Notes under the pieces: model-generated
Database searches by the model: none
Told to the model about the DNA's origin: nothing
What the model saw: only the letters and a program-made list of their open reading frames with translations
Shown here: positions 9,528-25,077 of the stretch, piece by piece
Layout: every line of letters starts with the position of its first letter
Position numbering within the stretch: position 1 is the stretch's first letter
Program-made: the position numbers and the translations under genes
Assembly (NCBI GenBank): GCA_000165425.1
Contig: CT867985.1
Location: forward strand, 806,001 to 870,000
DNA length: 64,000 bases
Source: Paramecium tetraurelia
Lineage: Eukaryota
Reading direction: 5' to 3'

Positions 9528-9856
9528 ATTTATTTATTAATGTAATTGTTTGCAAAATTTTATTGATATAATTTTAGTAAGAAATATGAAGAACAATAAT
9601 TAATATTTGAAGAAAATAAAATACATTAGAATTGAGTACTAAATTTATTGTATTATTCATCAAAAGTGCAATAGAAATTGACTTTGATTTTATGAAATTG
9701 GTTCTTAAAGTCTCAATATTTTAGTTTTTACAAATATCAATATGATAAGTTTATCTACAATTGCGGAGTTTAAGATATTGGGTTAAAAGTGAAAATTTTT
9801 GTGAATAAATTTCTGATTATTAAAATACCTTAATTTGCTGTGAGATTTCTAGGTCA

Positions 9857-12800
9857 ATGAAGTCTTAACTCAATAAAGGGAAAGCAGAACTGACTAGGTC
9901 TAACTATCTGAAAAAATTACAAAATCTTTAAATTTCATTCACTACTCTTCCAAATAGTGCACAATAGGTTAAAACACCAAATGTTTCCATAAACAATAAT
10001 TCTTTCAAAATTTTATCATAATAAACCACTCCTAAAACTGTTCAAGAAAATAATTTCTTTAGTAGTCGGGATTAAGATGTTAATGAATTAAAAAAATAAC
10101 ATGTGCGCACACAATCTCAAATTGAGGGTTTGCTTTTGAGAACCTAATTAGTTGAAACAGCTAGATAAAGAACAGCCTCTACTTTTATTAAGAAGCCTAA
10201 AGCTGAGGTTAAGCCTGCTAAGGTATATAGAATAATCTAGTAAATGAATTAAGAAGATGAATTGAGAAAACAAGAAAAATAAAAAAAAATGCAGCTGATG
10301 CAATAAGTGGAGATGGAGAAAAAAGAAAAGGAAAAGCTAAATCAATAAAGAGAATCCACTCCTAAAATTAATTCTCTTACATCAATTTTATCTAAAAAAT
10401 CCAATGCTGCTAAATATAAATTATTAAAAGTTAGCCTTAATGTAATAGAAAAATCGAAAGAAAAAAATTAACTGGAGTCAGTCGGAGAAGATTTCCAATA
10501 ACTGTCTTAGAACACAAAAATAAGAGAAAAATAAACAGATACCATTTTTAAAATATCCACTATCATTACAGCTTTGATGTTTTAGCGACTTCACTCTAAA
10601 ATAACATCTCCTAAATTGGCGCGACTTGTAGCAAAACATTATTTGAGTCTTATTAACTATAGAAAAATTGAGGAAAGATTGTTAGCTTTAACTTCAAATC
10701 CCTCGATGAAATATATCCAAAATGTATTACATGAAGATGATGTTTTAAGTAATGCGATAAAGGTGGCTTAAGTTAGAGAAATACAAAGAAGATTGAATGA
10801 AGGACTTTCATAAAGAAGAAAAGCTTCAAAAATCATATTCTAAAAAAAGTCTAGTAGAGAATTAAGAGCTGAAGATATTTTCTCAGAGAAAGTATTAAAA
10901 AGAGTCAGATTTATTTAAATGTGTTTTAGAATGAAGGTCTTTAAGGTCAATAAAAGAACTATTGCTAGTTCTAAACCTATTGAGAAGGCAAGAAAATCTA
11001 CAAAAGTAAGAGCATTCAAAAGAAGACTTGGAGATATTATATTTATGAGTGAAAATGTTCCAGTGTTTCAACTGTAATAGGAGAAGAAAGAGTAGGAAGA
11101 CAAGGAGAAAGAAAAAGAGAAGCTCTAATTAGAGGCAAAGAAGGAAAATCTTGGAGTTTTTGGAATGCTTTGGAAGGCTTAAAATAAATTTAAAAATTTT
11201 TGTAGACATCCAGGCTTAAAAATTCCATCAAAAACTTGCGATGATTGGGTCAAATATATTTAAACTTTATATTATCCTAGTTTCAGATACATTTCTGTTT
11301 TTTATAGAAACATTGTAGTTTGGTCAGTGTCTTATTATGATGTAACTTATGATAAGAGTTGTATTGCTCTATTCTTCAAAGGAGAAGGTCGTCAGTAATA
11401 TCATTTTCGTTTAGATATTCCACTTGTCACTATGCCTGACTTTGAAGTTAATAAGAATTGTAACACTGTTTGGCCTACAGTGAAGGATTACATGCTCATA
11501 TATTTAAGATAGAAGGGACAGTTGGCTTTATTGAATAAGGACCATCTCCCATCAGCAAAAGTGTATAAGACCTCTTTTATTTAAGGACTCTCTCTTAAGT
11601 CAAGAAGAAAACTCACTGAACTTGACATCTAATCGATTGTTGAAACCTAAAAAATTATCACTTATCTGCAAAACAATCAAATAGTAAAAATAAAAAAGAA
11701 GATAGGAACTACATATGATTTATTACCATAGTTATCTGAGACAATTGACTCAGATTTGATTAAATAATACATCATTAATTTACCTATGATTAGATTAATA
11801 CTTATTGACATTTTAGTTTTGGAGTAAAAATTATTAGAAAACAAAAGAAAATTAACTTAGGACATTTAGAACCTTTCAAAAGAATATGTAGCTTATATTC
11901 AAACAAATAAAGAAACACTGAATTAAATATTGCAATTCCGATTCTTACATAACAATAGTGAATTTTTCAATGATCAATTGATATCAAAAATAAATCAATA
12001 AGAAACCAAAAAGATATTCATTCAGTCTTGTTTCGTAGATATTAATGAAATATTAGTACAATCAAATGATGCACTATTGGGATAAGTAAGTAAAACATGT
12101 TAATTGAGTATTCATTTATGTTATAATGGTAATGTAGTATTAGACAAATTGCTATTAGATGTGGATAGAATGAGACCAAGGTATTCACTTCATAATGAAT
12201 CAACATAATTATTTTCAATCAATACTTAAACTTTACAATGGTTATTTGATACATCTAAATTTTAATTATAAATTGAAGCATTATTATTTGAAAAAGACAA
12301 ATAAAACACAGATTAATATTTCTATTAGACTAATCTATATAGAAGAAAAAACGAAAGAATCTTTTAGCCTCTAAGCATTAGTGTTTTTCATTTTGAGAAA
12401 TTAGCTCTTGCAGTTAAGGAAATAATGGATAGTTCAATTTTTGATCATTTTGAAATTAATTAAATTTTGAAGAATCTGATATTCGAAAGAGCAAATTATT
12501 CGGTAATAATCAACTTAATATTAAATCATTTGATTACTCTAAATTTTAAAAATAGACAAGTTACCTTAAAAGCCTAATATCAACACATACTTTCATCTAA
12601 CCTAAATTTTATTGAGAAAATGGATCATCACAGTTTGTATAATACAACTTAAACATATTTGAAATATAGCATATATCCTCATGAGGAGAAAGACTTAAGG
12701 AAAATGAAGGAAACTCGAGAAACTTAATCTAAATTTGAATATCACTCAATTTTCGATTAATAATTTTAACAGATTGATTAGATTGAACTCAAACCAGAAT

Positions 12801-15390
12801 ATACTTCTAAGTAATTGGAAGTAGCCTAGGAATACAATTATGACTAAAAACAAATCTTTTGGTCGTAAGGTGTCAAAAGGTTTGATACATTCCAACATCC
12901 CAATCTGGTAGTTGTTCGGCTGAGAGATAAATTTATCATTGTAATTATGTCATAATAAAGAGTAAGGATGATCAATATAACTACGTTGAGATAACCTTTG
13001 ATATTGGATTCAAATAATGCGCGTATTTTCCTTAATAGTTGTAAGTACACCTAATAAAAGCAATACCAGAAGTTATCTCTATATAGAAGATTGTTTATTA
13101 TTCTATTGAAGGAAAACTGCTTTTTAAGAATCAGAATGGAGAAATTCAATTGTACCATTAGAGCATCCCTCCCGAATTACAGTAAGATTAAGGCGTATCT
13201 ACTATCGGATTCAAAAGAATTAGTTAATTATCTAAATCGTTTGGATTTCACTTTTACTTTTGAAACCATTAATAAAGCAAAATGTTATGCGAATGTTAAG
13301 GTTTTCTATTTAGGTAGGCAAGAATCATATTACTCTACAAAATATGAATAAATTTATAAGTTTGATGGTGAGAACTTGTTTATCAGTCTCCAGATTCATG
13401 AATTTGACTCAAAGTTAAAGAAATATATTCTAATATTCAATAAATTTGACATTGAACAGAGATTTGAAATTTATAACTATTTCTCACCCAATTTAATTTA
13501 TTAATGGTGTTAAGAGTTTGTTGTGAATTTAAAATTTGATAAAAAGTTTCTATATAAAACCCCTTTTTCAGTCATGTAAATAATTAAATCATACCAAGAT
13601 ATAAAACTAGCCTCCTTTTGGATTGCTAAAAGATCATAAAAATGCATCCTTAATGAATATTAGAGAGTTCATTCGTATGATTATAGTCTGGCTAAATAGT
13701 TTTTAAGTTAAAGATACAAGATCTTCAGAGTAATAGCTCATTACATAGAGAAGTTTTATGTGGTGAAACAAAACAATCAAATAACACTTTTAAATGAATG
13801 CATGTTTCTTCAATTTAAGAATTACAAATTGATTAAGGTCGAATTCGTAATAATTACAATACAAGCTCATACAGTATTGGATCTTGTTTAAATCATCTAT
13901 TATTTTCCAAAAAGCAAAAAAAGATTGATGACCAATATTAATTTAATTTAAATTTAAGAAATGGATTTTAGTTTAGGTATGATATTCTAATTATTGAATG
14001 TTACTGAGTTTACTACTTTCAATGATATAACTAGTCAAGTTGATGAAATACAAAGAGGATCACTTAAATATAGGAGAAGCTCCAAATTAAATAGTTAAGT
14101 GATGACAAAATTGCATATTATGAGACAATCTATTGATGTATCTTAGCTTAGTTTCAGGACTGGAAAAATCAAAAGAAGACAAGGATTTGTGCACAGACTT
14201 CTTAAATTAATATCAAAACAAAAGTTATCAATTAAGCCATTGGAAAGAATGAGGATATGTGCTAAAAAGTATTGTAGATCATTGATTTTACGAGATAATT
14301 AAATAGTGGTGATAGAAAGAATGACAAACGCTACTTATTAGAGATAATGTTTTGGAAATTGATGTAATAGCAAGTATTTTAATTATCAGTTCGTAAAGAA
14401 AAGAGGTAACTCAAAAGTTACATCAGTTTATTTGATAGATTAGTAGAACTATTTGACAATGAATCAAACAAGAAATATAGAATTATAGGAAAAGAGTACT
14501 TAGAAAAAAAGTAAACGGATGAAAATATCAGGTATAACTACAAAGTATAATCGGAGTGCAGAAATTTGTATAGGGATCTCATATTAGAATAAGAAATATA
14601 TATGACTCAGAACTTAAATTTTGGTAAGACTCCCTTTGTAATTAAGTGTAATCTAAATGAGATCTCAATCTTAGAGTATCTGTGTACGAAATAATTTCGG
14701 AGTGACAATGGAAGTAGAGGATATATTGAGTATTTCTTAGAGAAGAAATAGAAGTAAAAGGGAATTGATTTGTTTGATCCTGCAAAACCTATTCTTTATT
14801 CAGCATCATCCAGTTACAATATTTATTTGAGGTACTATTGTTTGGCAAATTATCAATACAAAGATTTAAGGATAAACCTTAGAGAAATAATGAATTAGTT
14901 AGTTACAGACGGTCTCTATAAATCATAATCTAATTATATGAATAGCAAAATTAATCTTAGTGACATAATCGAAATGTGTCACTATCTGACTCAAAAAATT
15001 AAAACATAAAACTACCTTAATCTAGCTCGATTGTCACAAATTTAGATTAATCAATTACCAGAAATCTAATAGCACATCATCTCTGAATGTGATGATTAAT
15101 TATCCAAGGAAACTAAGCAAAAATCAGGAGATGGCTTTGTATGTACTCAAGTCATTCGGAACAAGAAAAATCATTCTATTTATCAATACTAATTATTCTA
15201 AACTACAAGAAAGGTTATTATCAATAAATACGAAATGAGATAAGACTATTTTGAATAGAAAGAGTTCACTTATGCTCAATTAACATAGTATGTCCATAAT
15301 TTTACATATCTAATCAAAGCAAAATTATACTATTTAGCTTTGAAAAGATTTTCTTAATGTTACATAGAATTGCAGAAAATTAATTAATGA
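9857..15390 (+). CDS. Very large hypothetical protein (~1,830 aa), one IQ-like motif
   Basis: Long TGA-free frame from ATG 9857; 20-nt intron 14138-14157 restores frame to TGA 15388-15390; FIQMCFRMK at ~10910-10940. Confidence 0.7.
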
Positions 15391-15949: not shown

Positions 15950-16186
15950 ATATTTATTTGAAAAAATATTATTAATTTTACAAATTTTCAATTAGTGATT
16001 ATTATACATAAAACATAATTATCTATATTGATTGTCTTGAACTAGATTGAAGAATTCTAATTGAAAATAAAATAACTTAATAATCTGTAAGTAGTGAGGT
16101 AAGATTTACTTAATTCTGATTAGAACTAGACTAAAATTTGTTGATATCCTTATATTAGCATTTATAAATATTATTTATTGATTATT

Positions 16187-17700
16187 ATGTATTAAGTTGA
16201 AGGAATTAATATAGCAGTTGAAGGTTGCTTTCATGGCAATTTTGATGAGATATTTGCTGAAGTTGTAGAGTTCGAGAAAAAAAAATAAATTAAAATTGAT
16301 TTAATTACTCGTTTGTGGAGATGTTCAAACTATGAGAAATAAAAATGATATGTATAACATGGCATGTCCTAAGAAATATTTATAAATGGGTTCATTTCAC
16401 AAATACTATACAGGTGAAAGAATAGCTCCTTGTTTAACAATATTTATTGGAGGAAATCATGAGGCATCTAATTATTTGAGAGAAATGTACAAAAACAATT
16501 AATTTTATTAGGCATTTTGGAGGCTGGGTTTGTCCAAATATCTATTACTTGGGGAGTTCAAATGTAATCGAAGTGAAAAAAGGGAAAACTACATTTAAAT
16601 TAGGAGGAAACTCAGGGATATTTAACAATTCAGATTTTTATATTTCTAAATTAGAAAATTTCCCATTCGAATAAGACTAATTACATTCGGTATATCACAT
16701 CAAATAATTTGATTTATATAAATTATGTATGTATGAAGGAGATGTAACTATGTTTTTATCTCATGATTGGCCATTAAGTAAATTTAGATTTCATTCTAAC
16801 TAGATATTGAAAAACATGGGAATACCAATGATTTGATTCGTAGAAAAAAACATTTTGAAGCAGATATTGTTGAAGGAAAATTTGGTAGCATTTCGCATCT
16901 CCATTTATTAAATAAGCTTTAGCCTAACTTTTGGTTTGCTGGTCACATGCATGTAAAATTTGAGGCTCAAGTAAATCATCAATCAAAAAAATAAACAAAG
17001 TATTAAAATCTATTGAGTTTAATAGATTTTTAGCTCTGGATAAATGTCTACCAGGAAGAGAATTTCTATCATTCTTTACATATACAAAAGAAGGGCTAGA
17101 TGTGTATAATGAATTTGCTTCCAATAATGAACCAGTTGAATTATATTATGACCCTGAATGGCTGGCAATCATGAAAACTACTTACAATTTATAATTGATA
17201 TGGGATAAAATGCCTAAATTATTTGAATGCAATTATGCATAAAAAGAGTATTTATCTATAAATATATGGTTAGATTAAAATTAATAAGGTGGGAAAAGTA
17301 CTAGTAAATGTTATAAGCAAAATAAGAAGTATTAAATAAATATAAAAATCAACGAATTAAAATACCAAATAATTTCTAAATAACAGCTACTCCTCATCAT
17401 AAAAATGATCACACAAATAGGTTAACCTTCCCCAATAAAGTAATTATGAATAACCAGATGAGTGATTATTTGAAATTGATCGGTGAAACAGGTTTAGAAT
17501 TAAATGGATTTCTATTTTATGATCCTCAATAACCACGAAAACAAGAATAGTCCAGTTAGTTTTAAGTAATCAATAGAATAGAAAGTCAATAGAATAAAAA
17601 GAAAGTTAAATAAGAAATTCTAAACCAGTTGGAGCAATCATAGAACTAATAAAAAAAGGATGGTAATTTGAGTGCATAAGATTTTCCATTTTTATAATGA
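16187..17700 (+). CDS. DBR1: RNA lariat debranching enzyme (apparent +1 frameshift near 16304)
   Basis: [67 protein letters not shown]; four tiny introns; one extra base between KIDL and LLVCGD. Confidence 0.92.
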
Positions 17701-17854
17701 AAATAAATAATAAACATAATTTTAAAATACCTAAATATAGTGAATCAAACTCAATATGAATGGGAATTCTTTCATATAAAATTTTATTGCGTATTAATAG
17801 AGATTAAAGGATTGTGTAATATTTGAATATTTTTTCAATATTAATAAATTTGAT

Positions 17855-19586
17855 ATGATGGCACAGGCTGATTTCATAGAATTCAAGGCATCCAGATCCC
17901 ATTCACAGTACAAATTGAACTCTATTGATTTCGATGATTTTGCGTACAACTTGAATAAAACGATATACAATTTCTAAAAGTCATAAGAAGGAAAAACGAT
18001 AGATAAAATTTCTAAATTTAGAAGGGCAAAGAGCTTCTTATATGTCAAAAAACATGAATCAACCAACGCTATCTATTAGACCTTCAGTAGGAACGCTCCT
18101 GGATTCGATGAAAATGAAACCAAGGAACTCATGGAGCTCATTCTCTAGTTAGAATATTTATTCATTCTCTACCACAAATTCTATCCAGATCAAAGTAACC
18201 CAGTTTTGCTCACGTCCTATCTAAATTGTCTAACCTACAATAAAGAAAGTATACAATATACTATTTTATAGAATATTTTGATAATTACACCAATGACATC
18301 TCGGAAACCCTCCAAATGTCAATTTTACGTAATTCTTAATAAAGAATTATCGAAGAAAAAACTGACGAAAACCTAATAAAATTCTTAGTCAATGAGATCA
18401 ATAGAAGGAATAAATATAAGAAAAATATGTAACTTATCAGAAGTGATTTAAACAAATTTCAAAAACTTTAACAAAATTATGAAATTTAAAGGAAAACCAA
18501 ATAATTAGAGCATACTAAATCAAATATGTTAGTGGCATCATTAAAAATAGTATTTTAAAATGTAAAATCATATCCCTATCTTAGACTTAAAACCATTCAA
18601 TTAATGTTCGATTTCCATTGATTGATTAAAATAAATCATTATGTTTGGATTTTGAGAAACTACTGAAGTAAGGGGATATTCACGATCTATTTAAATAATG
18701 GAACAATTACATTGACATCACATCTTCTCATTCAGAAATCACATTGCTAATCTCAATCGTCTAAGATCTCTTTCAAGAGGAAAGTTGGATAATCAAATCC
18801 ATTCTTGAATAGGTCTAAGATGAATCCATCATCTCTATTGATAAAATAATCTTGCAAATTGGGGCCTTAACATAATTCTGCCCCAAATGCTTGAATGTTA
18901 TGGATAGGAGTCACAAGGAAATCGCTTATTTGTTATAGTCGAAACTATAAAAATAATTGTTGAGCCTATAAATTAACGAAAATCTAAGCATTTAAAAATA
19001 AGTCATGATTATGCAAAATTCATAAGAGGAGTTATAAAAGGAAGATGAAAGACATAGTTTAGAGAATGCTTTGTTATAATCAAACAATTTGAAAATGTGT
19101 TTAATACCTTAAGGATTGATGAGCTAATTGTTTTTCATTCACAGATATTCTGATAATGGTACTCAAGCAGAGGAAGAGGAGGAATAACATTAGATTCAAG
19201 AATAGAAACAAGATTCTCAATAAAAAATTCAATTAGAAAATAGCTAAATTAAATTTAATAGATAATTTGTTCGATAGGCCTCAAGAAGAACTAGCCTAAT
19301 AAGTTTTGGATATTCTGAAATGCAAGCTGAATATTCAGATTTTGAACCACTCAGACAAAAATTGACAGATATGAAAATTCATTCAACTGTGTATATGGAA
19401 AATGCGGATAAAAAGGAATGGAAGAAGATATTTGATAAGATTAAATAGGAGAAAATGTAAAATTAAGAATTTCTAAAAAATTAATCAATATCTTCTAATT
19501 CATCTTTTGAAATGAATTGTATTGACGAAAAGTTTTTGAAATAGATGAAAGTCTTCTTATAAAATCAATAAATGAGAAGACAATGA
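17855..19586 (+). CDS. Hypothetical 561-aa protein with candidate Zn-dependent deaminase motif (HSE...CPKC)
   Basis: Two 23-nt introns (18249-18271, 18562-18584) give a continuous frame; HSE at 18729-18737 and CPKC at 18879-18890 are in frame. Confidence 0.75.
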
Positions 19587-19747: not shown

Positions 19748-22700
19748 TCATTTAAAGGAATGTAATCGCTATGGTGAAGTACCACCTCCTCCATATCCAG
19801 TTGTATTATTTATTACTTTTTTAACTGTCTTAAAGCTTTGAATCGTTTTCGATAATGGTTTTTTCATTGTGTCTGCAAAGGTTTTTCCTCTTAATTTATC
19901 TCCTAACCTCCTTAATTTCCATCCCTTTTTAATTGTCATGAAGAAGAAGGAAAAGTTAGAAAATTCTGGATATAGCCTTTTTTTGCCAAAAAACTTTTGT
20001 AATCTCGTATATCTATTATATATGAAATGGGAGAGTACCTTTTTATAACTGAATCATAATTATTAAAGGGAAAGTAGTATAAGAATGCTTACATTTTATC
20101 GAATTAAGCTAGAATTGTTGTGGATGTATGCTAATTATAGGTTTAATTGTCCATGAAAGAAGTAGGATTAACATCATTTGTCATTTCTCTTCCTTGATTT
20201 CTAGTAAATGTTCTGGTAGCATTTGATTATTTTTTGGATGTAGGTCTTCTTGCATGATTTCTAATTTCTAAATCAGATTGAGTGGGAGGATATATCTTTT
20301 CCGGAGTCAAAGTCCTCTTAATAGTTTAAGAGTTTCTTCCTTTTTGTGTGTAAGTGTGAGATCTTTGGGTTGATGAACGAGGTATGATTTCCTCAGCTGA
20401 TTCTTTCCGAGTAAAAGTTATTTTCGATTATTGATTTCTGACTACTTCTTGGCTTTTATTCGCTGGAATGGGCAAGTGCATAGGGACTTGATCTTTTTCT
20501 TCTTCTGATTCTTCATCAGAGCTTTCTTATTCGTCATCATCCCTTATAATATCAACATGCACACTATCTCTCATTCCGCCTCCAAACCCAGCTGTTTAAA
20601 GAGTTGTCCTAGGAAGTGCTACCTTTCTCGAATAATTTTTCTAATCATCTTCTTCTACTTCTGGAATTTAATTTAATTAAGTCTGCTTTTGACTTAATTT
20701 ACTAAATGTTCTTGAATTGCTCCTTTGATTTAATGAAGATGGTACATCGATTTCAACTAAAATAAATGAATATAAAATAAACCTTCATCCTCATAAACAT
20801 CATTCATCATATTTGAATGTTGGTCCAAATCTTCAAAATCTGTGCCTTTACTTGCTAAATACTAGAGTTCTTGCTGCAATTCTTTGGCTTTTGTCATTAC
20901 ATATTTTTATATGATCCAAGGACTGAGTTCCTTATCTCTTTCTTATCTTCCTCTAACCTTGTTCCTTTTTTAATCAAACGGATAGAGTTCTCTTTTTAGT
21001 ATAGCTTCTTTGTCTGGACAGAGATGTACATAATGACATTTATCAATTAGATGATTATTACTCTAGCAACTGTAACAATTTACTTATAGGACACTATAGT
21101 CCTATTACATTAAGGAATGATTCAATTGGCAGTACTTTTCATAATCATTAGGATAGGAAAGCAAGATCTTGATAAAGTTTTCTCGTTTGATTTTGAATAC
21201 TTTTGTAAATGCTCTTGAAATAGCAGTGGCCTTTCTAGATTAACCAGTAAAGAATCCTAATTCTCCGAAATAATCACCTTAAGATAAGAATTTTAGACTG
21301 TTCCTTTTGGTTTTCTCATTTAAACTGTTTAAGCCTTCAAAGATGATTTCAACTTCCCCTTTTGTAATTATGTATAAAGATGAGTCATCAGTTTAATTAA
21401 TAGTGATGATCCTCTCTTCTGGAGAGAAACTCTGTTCCTCCATTTAGCCCAACAAAGACTTTATCATTTTCTAAGAAAAGGTTTTGATCATGACTTTGCA
21501 GCTGCTCAATATGTTCCCTCTCAATTAATATTGTAACTCCTCCTATAGATTACTACTCAATTTGCTAATCAAAGTTACTACTTCTTCGTCATTCATATTT
21601 TGTTCCTCCTACCATATATACTCTAAATAACTCCGTATTCTAGTTTACAATTCAAATTAGATTTTGTTTTTAGACATGAATGTGTTTATTAATGTCACAC
21701 TTCTGCTGTATTCCATCGCTCCTTTGTACATGTTGGATACAAAAATTCCTATACTATTTACAGAATAAGCAAAGACTATGGAGGCTATGAGCATCGTCAA
21801 ATTATTGATTAACAATTCAAGATTATTCTTGGCTGTAATGTCTCCGTAGCCTACTGTTGTCATGGTCATTGTGGCCCAATATATTGCAGTATTGTATTTG
21901 GAGGCATTTCCTTTGTCTCTCAATTCATAAGCATCCAGCCAAGAATAACCGTCATTGTAGAAGGCTATCCCATGCCAAACACAAGCACAAATATGAGCAA
22001 TAAATACTATTATCATTGTTAACTTCAATAAGCCCACCAAATCATTTAAGGAACCGTACAAATTGAAGAACCTATTATTCGATATTACTTATTGATACTC
22101 TTATATTTATGCTAGGATCTTGTTAATCTTGGTCATCCTGAGAACGTAGAATACAGCACATAATGCTATTTGAATGGCCAACATTTAATTGGAATCTCCA
22201 TTGTTGGTCAGAATGAAAAACTGGAGGGTTATCGTACTGAGCGAAACCTTGAATCCTTATATATTCACAATAAGATACCAAATCAACAAAGGCGTATTGT
22301 CGAAAGTAATTTATTAATATTCTCTTTCTGTTTCTAATTATTATTCCCTTGTAGATAAAGGCCAAGTTCAATCCCACAAACACGTCCATACTGAGGATGG
22401 ACAAAAACAAAATTTCCAGGATCTACTTCGTCTCGTTGTACCCCAAGAATTCCCCTATTGACTCCAGTTTGAAAGAAATCTTATAAGGAAGCCAAAAGAA
22501 TATCAATAAGTATATTAAAATTTAAAATAGGCCCCAAATAAAGATGAACTAACTGTAAGGTGTAAAAACCTCAATGTAGGAGAAAAATCTCTTGATTGCC
22601 TCCAATTTTGTAAGAGTTCTCCTCTAATCCTGATAGTATGTCTCATTCTCTAATTGTAAATCGTCCAAAACCTGAACCTAATAGCCAGACAATTAATCCA

Positions 22701-23099: not shown

Positions 23100-25077
23100 T
23101 CACTTTGCAAGTGGATGTTAATAAATATTATAATTCATAATTAGGTTTATTTTGTTATCGGCAAGTATGCTCTAATTAGTGAACCGATCAAGTTTAACCT
23201 AGATCTATACTATTAGTATCACTGAAATGATGAAGGTAGCAATTGTTAAGAGAGTATACTTTGTATTCCATTCCAACACAAACATGACCAAATTTAGAAG
23301 CAACTTTGGATATATGGTGTAAAAGCTAGTGATCAAAACTCGATAAATCAGAGTGTTGTTAGATTTGATTTCTTAGCCAAAGACTGTTTACAGATTCAAA
23401 CTGTCCACGTAAAATCTACACATGGAATAGAAGACACCTGCTAAATGAATAAATGGGATGTTGGTGGAGAATGTCATCACTATAAAGAGGACTGCGATTT
23501 ACAATCCATAATAGTATCCATACGAAAAAATATCTCCAAGAGGTTAGAGATGAGGGTATATCTTAAAATGCTTTCTTTTCAACTCAGTATATTGAACACT
23601 TATGTAGCTTGTAAATATTTCATCCAATCTCAACATTGTTATTAAAGATACACAACCAGCTTAGATTAATATTCCTATGAAAAATCTCCCATTGTTCAAC
23701 TAATATTAGATTAATCAAAATACAAAATAAACAGCTTGTATTGCTGAGATCATATTTGTGGCACCCTGCATTACAATTTAATACACGTTGTGAACAGCCA
23801 AAAATGAAATTGCTGGAATTACCAACATATTCATGGTCAAATAAAATACACAAGGATTGAAAATTTTAATTTAATACTGCGATTTACTTATATGTCTTTC
23901 CCATCTAGATGATAATTAAATCAACATAAGTAGAGCACTGTTTATCAATACAACTAAAATCAAAGAGAAATATTATCTAAATACAGATATGTCCCCTTCA
24001 TCCTCTTATTTTCCAATTGAATTATCAAACCCTATAAATTCTATAATGCTAGTTGGAGTTGTGAAAAAAAGCAATACCAAAATAAGAAGGATTTACATAA
24101 AAAACCTTCTTAACATTAAATTTTTTAAAGTAGTATTTAAATATAAGTAAATTACATCAAAAGGATCTGGGGCTTCAAATGCCAAAAGATAAGTTTAGCT
24201 TATTTTGATTCTATCATCTTCAATATTGTCAGAATCAGCTTTATGACAGCTTTTAAACTCAAACTTAAATCGCTAGAGGCTTTGATTCACTGCTTCAACA
24301 GTATCGAAGGTTATAATAGCATGGCCACTGTTAGGTTCAACTTAAGGAATTTCTTATAATTTTGGAGAGAAACAGCTGATAAGCAATTGATGTTTATTTT
24401 GCAAATATAATTCGTTCTCTTTCTGATTCTTGACTTCCTTAATGGGATATTTGGGAATTATCACAACTGATAGAACTTTGATATGCAGAGTATCAAAAAC
24501 TTAATTAAAGAAATTTTTAATATCTTCTTTAGTCACATCTTCCCTGATTCCCTTTATAAATATAGAATGCTATCTTATTATATCGACTTCCCCTTCTGAG
24601 TGTATCTCTGAGTTTTTGATTTCCTCCAAAGTGTTGTAAACAAATAACATCAAAATCCCACAATAAATTAAAGTCATACAAAATTAGAATGAAGGAGTAA
24701 AGTCTTGATCTATGATTATCAAACTAGTTTTCTTGTCTGGAAAAATACCTGATATGAAGGCAATCAGGAAAAAGACTAATTATAATTTTATAAGTTATCT
24801 TATGAAATAGAGATACTAGTATCCATCAATCCTAATGAATTTATTATTTCAAATACCCACAAACTCTAGTATAATAATCCTTATCAAATGCCAAGAGGAG
24901 TTTAATATTATGCTTAATAGTTATGAATGAATTTTAGATCAAGAGTATTGATCCGTCTTCAGGTCCTGGAAAGTAAATTCCTTTCCTTACAAATAGCACA
25001 TGATAGCAGATCAAAGTGAACAAAATGAGTAGAAAATTTAATCCAAACACAGAACCTAATTCAACTTGTTAACTCAT
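23100..25077 (-). CDS. OSCA/TMEM63 (CSC1-like) stress-gated cation channel
   Basis: GIDGYQYLYFIR, GHAIITF, EAPDPFDVIY, FSYGYYYG, multi-TM, C-terminal YQHPLAK-TGA. Confidence 0.85.

What the first reader, a model, noticed from the sequence alone, without database searches (positions are those of the whole stretch)
17855..19586. Orphan gene with a toxin-type nucleic-acid deaminase signature (N..VA / HSE / CPKC)
Seen: after splicing two 23-nt introns the protein reads KSNMLVASLKIVF (strand-like), then SHSEITLL (helix-like), then, 50 codons after the His, IDKIILQIGALTQFCPKCLNVM, followed by a helix and the strand KQVMIM. Established: the cytidine/adenosine deaminase superfamily is defined by HxE followed by a strand and (P)CxxC. 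Bacterial polymorphic-toxin deaminases, such as the BURPS668_1122-type clade, have an early N-x-x-(V/I)-A strand and an xSE-x-x-hydrophobic helix. Inference: this is an unannotated, intron-containing (host-domesticated) deaminase unlike Tad2/Tad3/CDA. It could be a ciliate DNA/RNA editing, tRNA-modifying or anti-symbiont defence enzyme, with ~230-aa N-terminal and ~200-aa C-terminal accessory regions. The ORF track misses it entirely.
Basis: partly seen in the sequence, partly recalled or inferred. Interest (0 to 1): 0.75.

Follow-up and report, generated by a model that had tools for sequence, protein, structure and literature searches.

The report
Possible hidden deaminase in Paramecium
A transcribed Paramecium gene found only in this group of ciliates has a middle part that may fold like the zinc enzymes that edit DNA or RNA letters, but this rests on a weak structure prediction and no sequence search supports it.

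Summary
The sequence observation holds. A 561-codon gene at 17855-19586 (+), read with the ciliate code and spliced at two 23-nt GTA..TAG introns, gives N216-x-x-V-A, H277-S-E279 and C327-P-K-C330, with the His 50 codons before the first Cys. It is not unannotated. The spliced product equals a Paramecium tetraurelia database protein ("unnamed protein product"), and RNA reads cover exactly this gene.

The family has 11 full-length proteins, all from the P. aurelia complex. A profile search of 1.84 billion representatives found nothing outside it. H, E and both C are invariant in 11 of 11, but 43% of all columns are invariant.

A divergent helix-4-type (APOBEC/TadA-like) deaminase fold is plausible, about 0.45. 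The BURPS668_1122 toxin-clade assignment is not supported.

The parts
17855..19586 (+). Whole gene: three exons, two 23-nt introns, 561 codons plus TGA under the ciliate code.
   Evidence: Equals database protein P0004. RNA reads lie only within 17834-19575.
17855..18248 (+). Exon 1 (residues 1-131 and the first base of codon 132). It is part of the most conserved region of the protein (residues 1-204, 53% invariant columns). Its fold was not resolved.
   Evidence: pLDDT is below 50 for residues 1-216 in the full-length model.
18249..18271 (+). Intron 1, 23 nt, GTA..TAG.
   Evidence: X4 contig shows 23 nt left out at 18249.
18272..18561 (+). Exon 2 (residues 132-228). It ends with predicted strand b1 (NMLVASLKIVF, N216 at 18523-18525).
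18562..18584 (+). Intron 2, 23 nt, GTA..TAG.
   Evidence: X4 contigs end at 18561 and begin at 18585, and a low-depth unspliced contig spans 18532-18614.
18585..19586 (+). Exon 3 (residues 229-561 plus stop).
18490..19160 (+). Putative deaminase-like core, residues 205-420 (intron 2 lies inside). Predicted order: b1 217-228, b2 233-239, helical insert 241-267, a2 278-291, extra helix 296-305, b3 310-322, a3 328-352, b4 363-372, a4 381-393, b5 397-401.
   Evidence: AlphaFold models. Structure searches.
18729..18737 (+). H277-S278-E279 (cat tca gaa), at the N-terminus of predicted helix a2. H and E are invariant in 11 of 11. S is P in 2 of 11.
18879..18890 (+). C327-P-K-C330 (tgc ccc aaa tgc), directly after predicted strand b3 and at the N-terminus of helix a3. 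Both C are invariant in 11 of 11. P-K is S-N in 5 of 11.
19161..19583 (+). C-terminal region, residues 421-561. It has a variable acidic, Q-rich linker (421-480, 13% invariant columns) and a conserved helical tail (481-561, 37%).

Best explanation
The gene encodes a 561-aa protein restricted to Paramecium. Its central 215 residues (205-420) most likely adopt the zinc-dependent deaminase fold in its helix-4 form, the form of TadA/Tad2, dCMP deaminases and AID/APOBEC. Inferred mechanism: His277, Cys327 and Cys330 hold one zinc ion. Glu279 acts as proton shuttle for a zinc-bound water, which attacks C4 of cytosine or C6 of adenine in a nucleic acid or nucleotide. [quoted passage not shown] The highly conserved N-terminal 200 residues and the helical C-terminal tail would supply targeting or partner binding. 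Shown here: the gene model, transcription, restriction to the P. aurelia complex, invariance of H/E/C/C, and the predicted order of secondary structure elements. Inferred only: the fold itself, zinc binding, catalysis, and the substrate. No evidence bears on the substrate.
Confidence: 0.45

Rival explanations
1. This is a lineage-specific Paramecium protein with an ordinary alpha/beta domain that is not a deaminase. The HxE and CxxC motifs are a coincidence or a structural metal site, and AlphaFold was steered towards a deaminase-like arrangement by the motifs and the shallow alignment.
For: All sequence-based searches are negative. Structural scores sit in the range that the tool calls common for unrelated arrangements. 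Non-deaminase alpha/beta folds (SGNH esterases, CetZ, Rab, xylanases) appear at similar scores. The five models vary widely. A chance rate of 0.4% per protein still allows many chance motif pairs across a proteome scanned by eye. The N-terminal region is the most conserved part.
Against: The a priori motif hypothesis and the independent ranking of structural neighbours agree: 22 of 50 rows in an unbiased search of 48,161 chains are deaminases. Both motifs fall at helix N-termini after strands, as in real deaminases.
Confidence: 0.4
2. The domain has the deaminase fold but is not a nucleic-acid-editing enzyme. It could be a non-catalytic nucleic-acid-binding or scaffold module, or an enzyme on a small-molecule substrate, such as a nucleotide or base.
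For: The same structural evidence as the main reading. The matches include dCMP, RibD and cytosine deaminases as well as APOBEC and TadA. Passages of Iyer et al. 2011 note that eukaryotic offshoots such as the Perkinsus proteins are predicted inactive.
Against: All four catalytic-type residues, including the Glu, are invariant in 11 of 11. This argues against an inactive form. The long flanking regions are unusual for metabolic deaminases.
Confidence: 0.1
3. It is a PX-domain (phosphoinositide-binding, sorting-nexin-like) protein, as the UniRef name of one paralogue (P0014) suggests.
For: UniRef calls P0014 a 'PX domain-containing protein'.
Against: Pfam lists no PX match in 0 of 11 members at E up to 10. 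No PX structure appears in the listed rows of any structure search.
Confidence: 0.05

Closest known systems
AID/APOBEC family cytidine deaminases (helix-4 division of the deaminase superfamily)
   Different: There is no detectable sequence similarity: Pfam APOBEC families match 0 of 11 members. The first Cys is preceded by F, not P. H-to-C spacing is 50 residues, with an extra helix. [quoted passage not shown] The D-aromatic motif that Iyer et al. 2011 describe at helix 5 is not seen. The protein has long N- and C-terminal regions of unknown fold.
TadA/Tad2 tRNA adenosine deaminases
   Different: hhalign probability is 0.1%. H-to-C spacing is 30 residues in TadA and 50 here. The EPC motif and the C-terminal helices of TadA are not recognisable.
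BURPS668_1122-type polymorphic-toxin deaminases
   Same: [quoted passage not shown]
   Different: By passages of Iyer et al. 2011, that clade has DxE within RxxDxExK, has CxxCxS, belongs to the C-terminal hairpin division and is often truncated after helix 3. This protein has HSE-I-T, a variable residue at the S position, and a predicted helix 4 between strands 4 and 5. No bacterial relative was found.

Membership tests
Zinc-dependent deaminase superfamily (CDA fold) | [H/C/D]-x-E at the N-terminus of helix 2. | tested here: met
   H277-S-E279 has H and E invariant in 11 of 11. The predicted helix starts at residue 278.
Zinc-dependent deaminase superfamily (CDA fold) | (P)C-x-x-C at the N-terminus of helix 3, directly after strand 3. 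| tested here: met
   C327 and C330 are invariant in 11 of 11. The strand at 310-322 is followed by a helix from 328. The residue before the first Cys is F, not P.
Zinc-dependent deaminase superfamily (CDA fold) | Three-layer alpha/beta/alpha fold with a five-stranded sheet that superposes on known deaminases. | tested here: inconclusive
Zinc-dependent deaminase superfamily (CDA fold) | Significant sequence or profile similarity to a deaminase family. | tested here: not met
   Pfam matches 0 of 11 members. PDB profiles give 0 hits. hhalign against TadA gives probability 0.1%. HHpred against the whole deaminase clan was not available.
Zinc-dependent deaminase superfamily (CDA fold) | One zinc bound by H/C/C, and hydrolytic deamination that depends on the Glu. 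| not testable with these tools
   This needs metal analysis and enzyme assays.
BURPS668_1122 toxin-deaminase clade | RxxDxExK in helix 2 (DxE in place of HxE). | tested here: not met
   The sequence is I-T-S-S-H-S-E-I-T, with no R, D or K at those positions. The definition comes from Iyer et al. 2011, passages.
BURPS668_1122 toxin-deaminase clade | CxxCxS in helix 3. | tested here: not met
   The position two residues after C330 is N, T, S or Q among the 11 members, so it is not conserved.
BURPS668_1122 toxin-deaminase clade | C-terminal hairpin division (strands 4 and 5 form a hairpin without an intervening helix). | tested here: inconclusive
   Both models place helices (376-379 or 374-378, and 381/385-393) between strands 4 and 5. 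Confidence there is only 53-62.
AID/APOBEC-like clade | Clade signatures listed by Iyer et al. [quoted passage not shown] | tested here: inconclusive
   M399 lies in predicted strand 5, and F326 (not W) precedes C327. No D-aromatic motif is seen at 404-416. About 10 residues separate strand 4 from helix 4. No APOBEC Pfam family matches.
PX domain | A match to the PX profile and the PX fold. | tested here: inconclusive
   Pfam lists no PX match in 0 of 11 members at E up to 10. No PX chain is listed in any fold search. The PROSITE profile that probably gave the UniRef name could not be run.

The most novel reading that the evidence does not exclude
Paramecium carries a family of active nucleic-acid deaminases of the APOBEC/TadA structural type. 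The family is retained through whole-genome duplications and is so divergent that no sequence method finds it. It would edit or mutate DNA or RNA, for example in defence against transposons, viruses or endosymbionts, or in the RNA-guided genome rearrangements of ciliate development. Its strongly conserved N-terminal region would act as the targeting module.
Probability: 0.15. Interest if true: 0.8.

Novelty: new variant of a known kind. Interest (0 to 1): 0.5.

Why it matters
Editing and mutator deaminases of the AID/APOBEC type are known from animals and a scattering of other eukaryotes. The main text of the survey I consulted (Iyer et al. 2011) has no occurrence of 'ciliate' or 'Paramecium'. 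My four literature searches that touch the question found no report of such an enzyme in ciliates. If the fold and activity were confirmed, it would give ciliates a candidate enzyme for base editing or targeted mutation. These organisms have elaborate RNA-guided genome surveillance. It would also be an example of a deaminase family that only structure prediction can see. If it is not confirmed, this is simply one more conserved Paramecium orphan of unknown function.

Tried and rejected
Whole-genome search: no genome is held for this window.

More distant relatives:
- The profile search of 1.84 billion representatives returned only the family itself and four short fragments of 30-65 aa.
- A profile search of the 5.8-billion collection returned the same 11 proteins.
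- A metagenome scan with peptide patterns gave 221 pattern matches, none confirmed.
- A scan with my own degenerate DNA pattern, allowing TAA/TAG for Gln, gave 0 matches.

Sequence-based fold recognition:
- The protein atlas gave no usable hit for the whole protein or for residues 205-420.
- The TadA search returned only relatives of 80% identity or more. The TadA profile (A3) was therefore shallow and the hhalign test had little power.
- PX-domain reading: no Pfam support.

RNA runs: 'no RNA holder listed' in the index. The raw-read runs that were laid did show transcription.

Read depth falls off about 100 nt before the stop codon, and the X4 contig ends at 19532. I considered an earlier transcript end, or the 26-nt GTA..TAG candidate at 19519-19544. 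I rejected both for three reasons. The contig reads into that candidate. The C-terminal residues up to the stop are conserved in the relatives. The annotated 561-aa product uses the same end.

Earlier notes of this scan: nothing for this place, sequence or words.

No complex prediction was run, because no binding claim is made.

Full report
**What is there.** The window reads as gene-dense ciliate macronuclear DNA, with TAA and TAG inside long open frames. An ATG at 17855 opens a frame that is interrupted twice. Only two 23-nt GTA..TAG candidates lie in the span, at 18249-18271 and 18562-18584. Removing both gives a single frame of 561 codons ending in TGA at 19584-19586. NMLVASLKIVF sits at the end of exon 2. 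SHSEITLL, IDKIILQIGALTQFCPKCLNVM and KQVMIM are in exon 3. H277 lies 50 codons before C327.

A search with exon 3 returned a 561-aa Paramecium tetraurelia protein, 100% identical over the query and named only "unnamed protein product" (P0004). The gene model is therefore right, but the gene is not unannotated.

**Transcription.** Two poly-A RNA runs were laid as raw reads and gave 96 and 154 reads. All lie within 17834-19575, and nearly all have the first mate on the minus strand. That is what an mRNA from the plus strand gives in the usual stranded library. One transcript-like contig set (X4) lacks exactly the 23 nt at 18249. Its contigs end at 18561 and resume at 18585, and a low-depth unspliced form spans 18532-18614. 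Depth is low and thins about 100 nt before the stop. I attribute this to the end effect of short reads. The conserved C-terminal residues and the annotated product agree on the stop.

**Family and conservation.** The family has 11 full-length proteins, from P. tetraurelia (3), sonneborni (3), primaurelia (2), octaurelia (2) and pentaurelia (1). They fall into two groups, 86-92% and 57-60% identical to the window's protein. A profile of all 11, scored against 1.84 billion representative proteins, found only the family's own representative and four fragments of 30-65 aa that look like pieces of further Paramecium copies. Two metagenome scans found nothing. One of them allowed TAA/TAG for Gln.

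H277, E279, C327 and C330 are invariant in 11 of 11. S278 is P in 2 members, and P328-K329 is S-N in 5.
- 240 of 561 columns (43%) are invariant.
- 4 of 6 Cys and 4 of 12 His positions are invariant.
- The N-terminal 204 residues (53% invariant columns) are more conserved than the putative catalytic core (43.5%).

**Chance.** H.E.{20,70}C..C appears in 77 of 20000 shuffles of this protein. It appears once, in this gene, in 53,534 residues of code-6 ORFs of at least 100 aa in the window. The pair is rare per protein. A reader scanning whole genomes will still meet chance pairs, so the motif alone proves little.

**Sequence-based recognition: negative throughout.**
- Pfam at E up to 10 lists no deaminase family for the exon translations, for five full-length members, for all 11 full-length members or for all 11 domain pieces.
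- Profiles of the family find no PDB chain at E up to 10.
- The protein atlas gives no usable hit.
- hhalign of the domain alignment against E. coli TadA alone and against a shallow TadA alignment is not significant: probability 0.3% and 0.1%.
- The best-scoring hhalign path does place SSHSEI on TAHAEI and QFCPKC on EPCVMC in one register, with an insertion after helix 2. That is a description, not support.

**Structure prediction.** The full-length model is poor (mean pLDDT 42.4, pTM 0.36), except for parts of residues 217-372, which reach 70-86. A second run on columns 201-420 of the alignment gave mean pLDDT 66.4 and pTM 0.66, with blocks at 84-91. The five models ranged from 66 down to 40.

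Both runs give the same order of elements: b1 217-228, b2 233-239, short helices 241-267, a helix from 278, a helix 296-305, b3 310-322, a long helix from 328, b4 363-372, helices to 393, and b5 397-401. H277 sits one residue before a helix start. C327 and C330 straddle a helix start immediately after a strand. This is the arrangement of the two zinc motifs in the deaminase fold. The helix between strands 4 and 5 is the mark of the helix-4 division as defined by Iyer et al. 2011 (passages read).

**Structure comparison.**
- Foldseek found nothing at E of 0.001 or better. For both models the first rows are APOBECs (E 0.064, TM about 0.3, rmsd about 10 A). For the domain model they are mixed with xylanases and others.
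- With the full-length model, the 6 rows that reach residues 204-422 are all deaminases. The other 44 match helical hairpins in residues 73-187.

What carries weight is this. A hypothesis made from sequence motifs alone is met by an independent ranking in which one rare fold dominates. The caveat is that AlphaFold, given a shallow alignment (Neff 1.5), may itself have keyed on the motifs. I also could not inspect coordinates to see whether the four residues meet.

[quoted passage not shown] The family here has H-S-E-I-T, a variable residue at the S position, and a predicted helix 4. [quoted passage not shown]

Structurally the nearest are AID/APOBEC, then TadA and dCMP-type enzymes, all of the helix-4 division. 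Of the APOBEC-like signatures listed in the paper, a Met in strand 5 (M399) and an aromatic residue before the first Cys (F326 rather than W) are present. The D-aromatic motif of helix 5 is not. I therefore file it under no clade. It works like, at most, a helix-4 deaminase.

No bacterial relative exists in the libraries searched. Introns, the ciliate code and retention of paralogues mark it as an ordinary nuclear gene. Nothing speaks for recent domestication of a toxin.

**Other readings.** UniRef names one paralogue a PX-domain protein. Pfam lists no PX match in 0 of 11 members, and no PX chain appears in any fold list. The neighbours are a lariat-debranching enzyme gene upstream on the same strand and a cyclic-nucleotide-binding potassium channel downstream on the other strand. 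They give no functional hint, as is usual for Paramecium.

**Literature.**
- Iyer et al. 2011 (PMC3239186): passages read only. 'Ciliate' and 'Paramecium' each occur 0 times in its main text.
- Searches for Paramecium with 'deaminase fold', APOBEC-like with ciliate, 'Paramecium tetraurelia' with 'cytidine deaminase', and 'APOBEC-like deaminases' with alveolates returned listings with no paper on such an enzyme in ciliates. I judged these by titles and abstract starts only.
- Supplements were not consulted. The supplementary alignments of Iyer et al. could hold ciliate sequences that I did not see.

**Verdict.** A divergent deaminase-fold core with an intact H-E-C-C set is the best single reading (about 0.45). 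The plain alternative, an unrelated orphan with a chance motif, is close behind (about 0.4). Substrate and biological role are unknown. The toxin-clade label and the 'unannotated' claim are wrong or unsupported.

Noticed in passing
window 16182-17700 (+): The upstream neighbour is a multi-exon lariat debranching enzyme (DBR1) gene. Two frame pieces match the Pfam DBR1 C-terminal domain (E 2.2e-17 and 9.4e-07), and a metallophosphatase-like GHMHV motif lies just before them.
   Followed up: partly
window 20574-22367 (-): The downstream neighbour on the opposite strand is a cyclic-nucleotide-binding potassium-channel-type gene, matching Ion_trans, Ion_trans_2 and cNMP_binding.
   Followed up: partly
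window 9746-14362 (+): A single uninterrupted code-6 frame of 1538 aa has no Pfam family at E up to 0.001. It is another large uncharacterised Paramecium protein.
   Followed up: no
window 23718-24848 (-): This frame has a weak match to RSN1_7TM, the calcium-dependent channel 7TM region. The match (E 5.2e-4) is below the Pfam cut-off.
   Followed up: no
window 17855-18489 (residues 1-204 of the protein): The N-terminal region is the most conserved part of the family. It has 53% invariant columns and a 15-residue window at 93% around residues 23-39. AlphaFold nevertheless gives it pLDDT below 50, and no family matches it. Its fold and role are unexplained, and it may matter more than the putative catalytic core.
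   Followed up: partly
window 19519-19544 (+): A third GTA..TAG candidate of 26 nt lies near the 3' end. The transcript-like contig reads into it, and the annotated product does not splice it. RNA depth is too low there to exclude occasional use.
   Followed up: partly
P0016 (57-aa fragment from the representative library): This fragment matches residues 217-265 of the family but carries about 9 extra residues where intron 2 lies. It looks like an unspliced read-through of the same intron position in another Paramecium copy.
   Followed up: no
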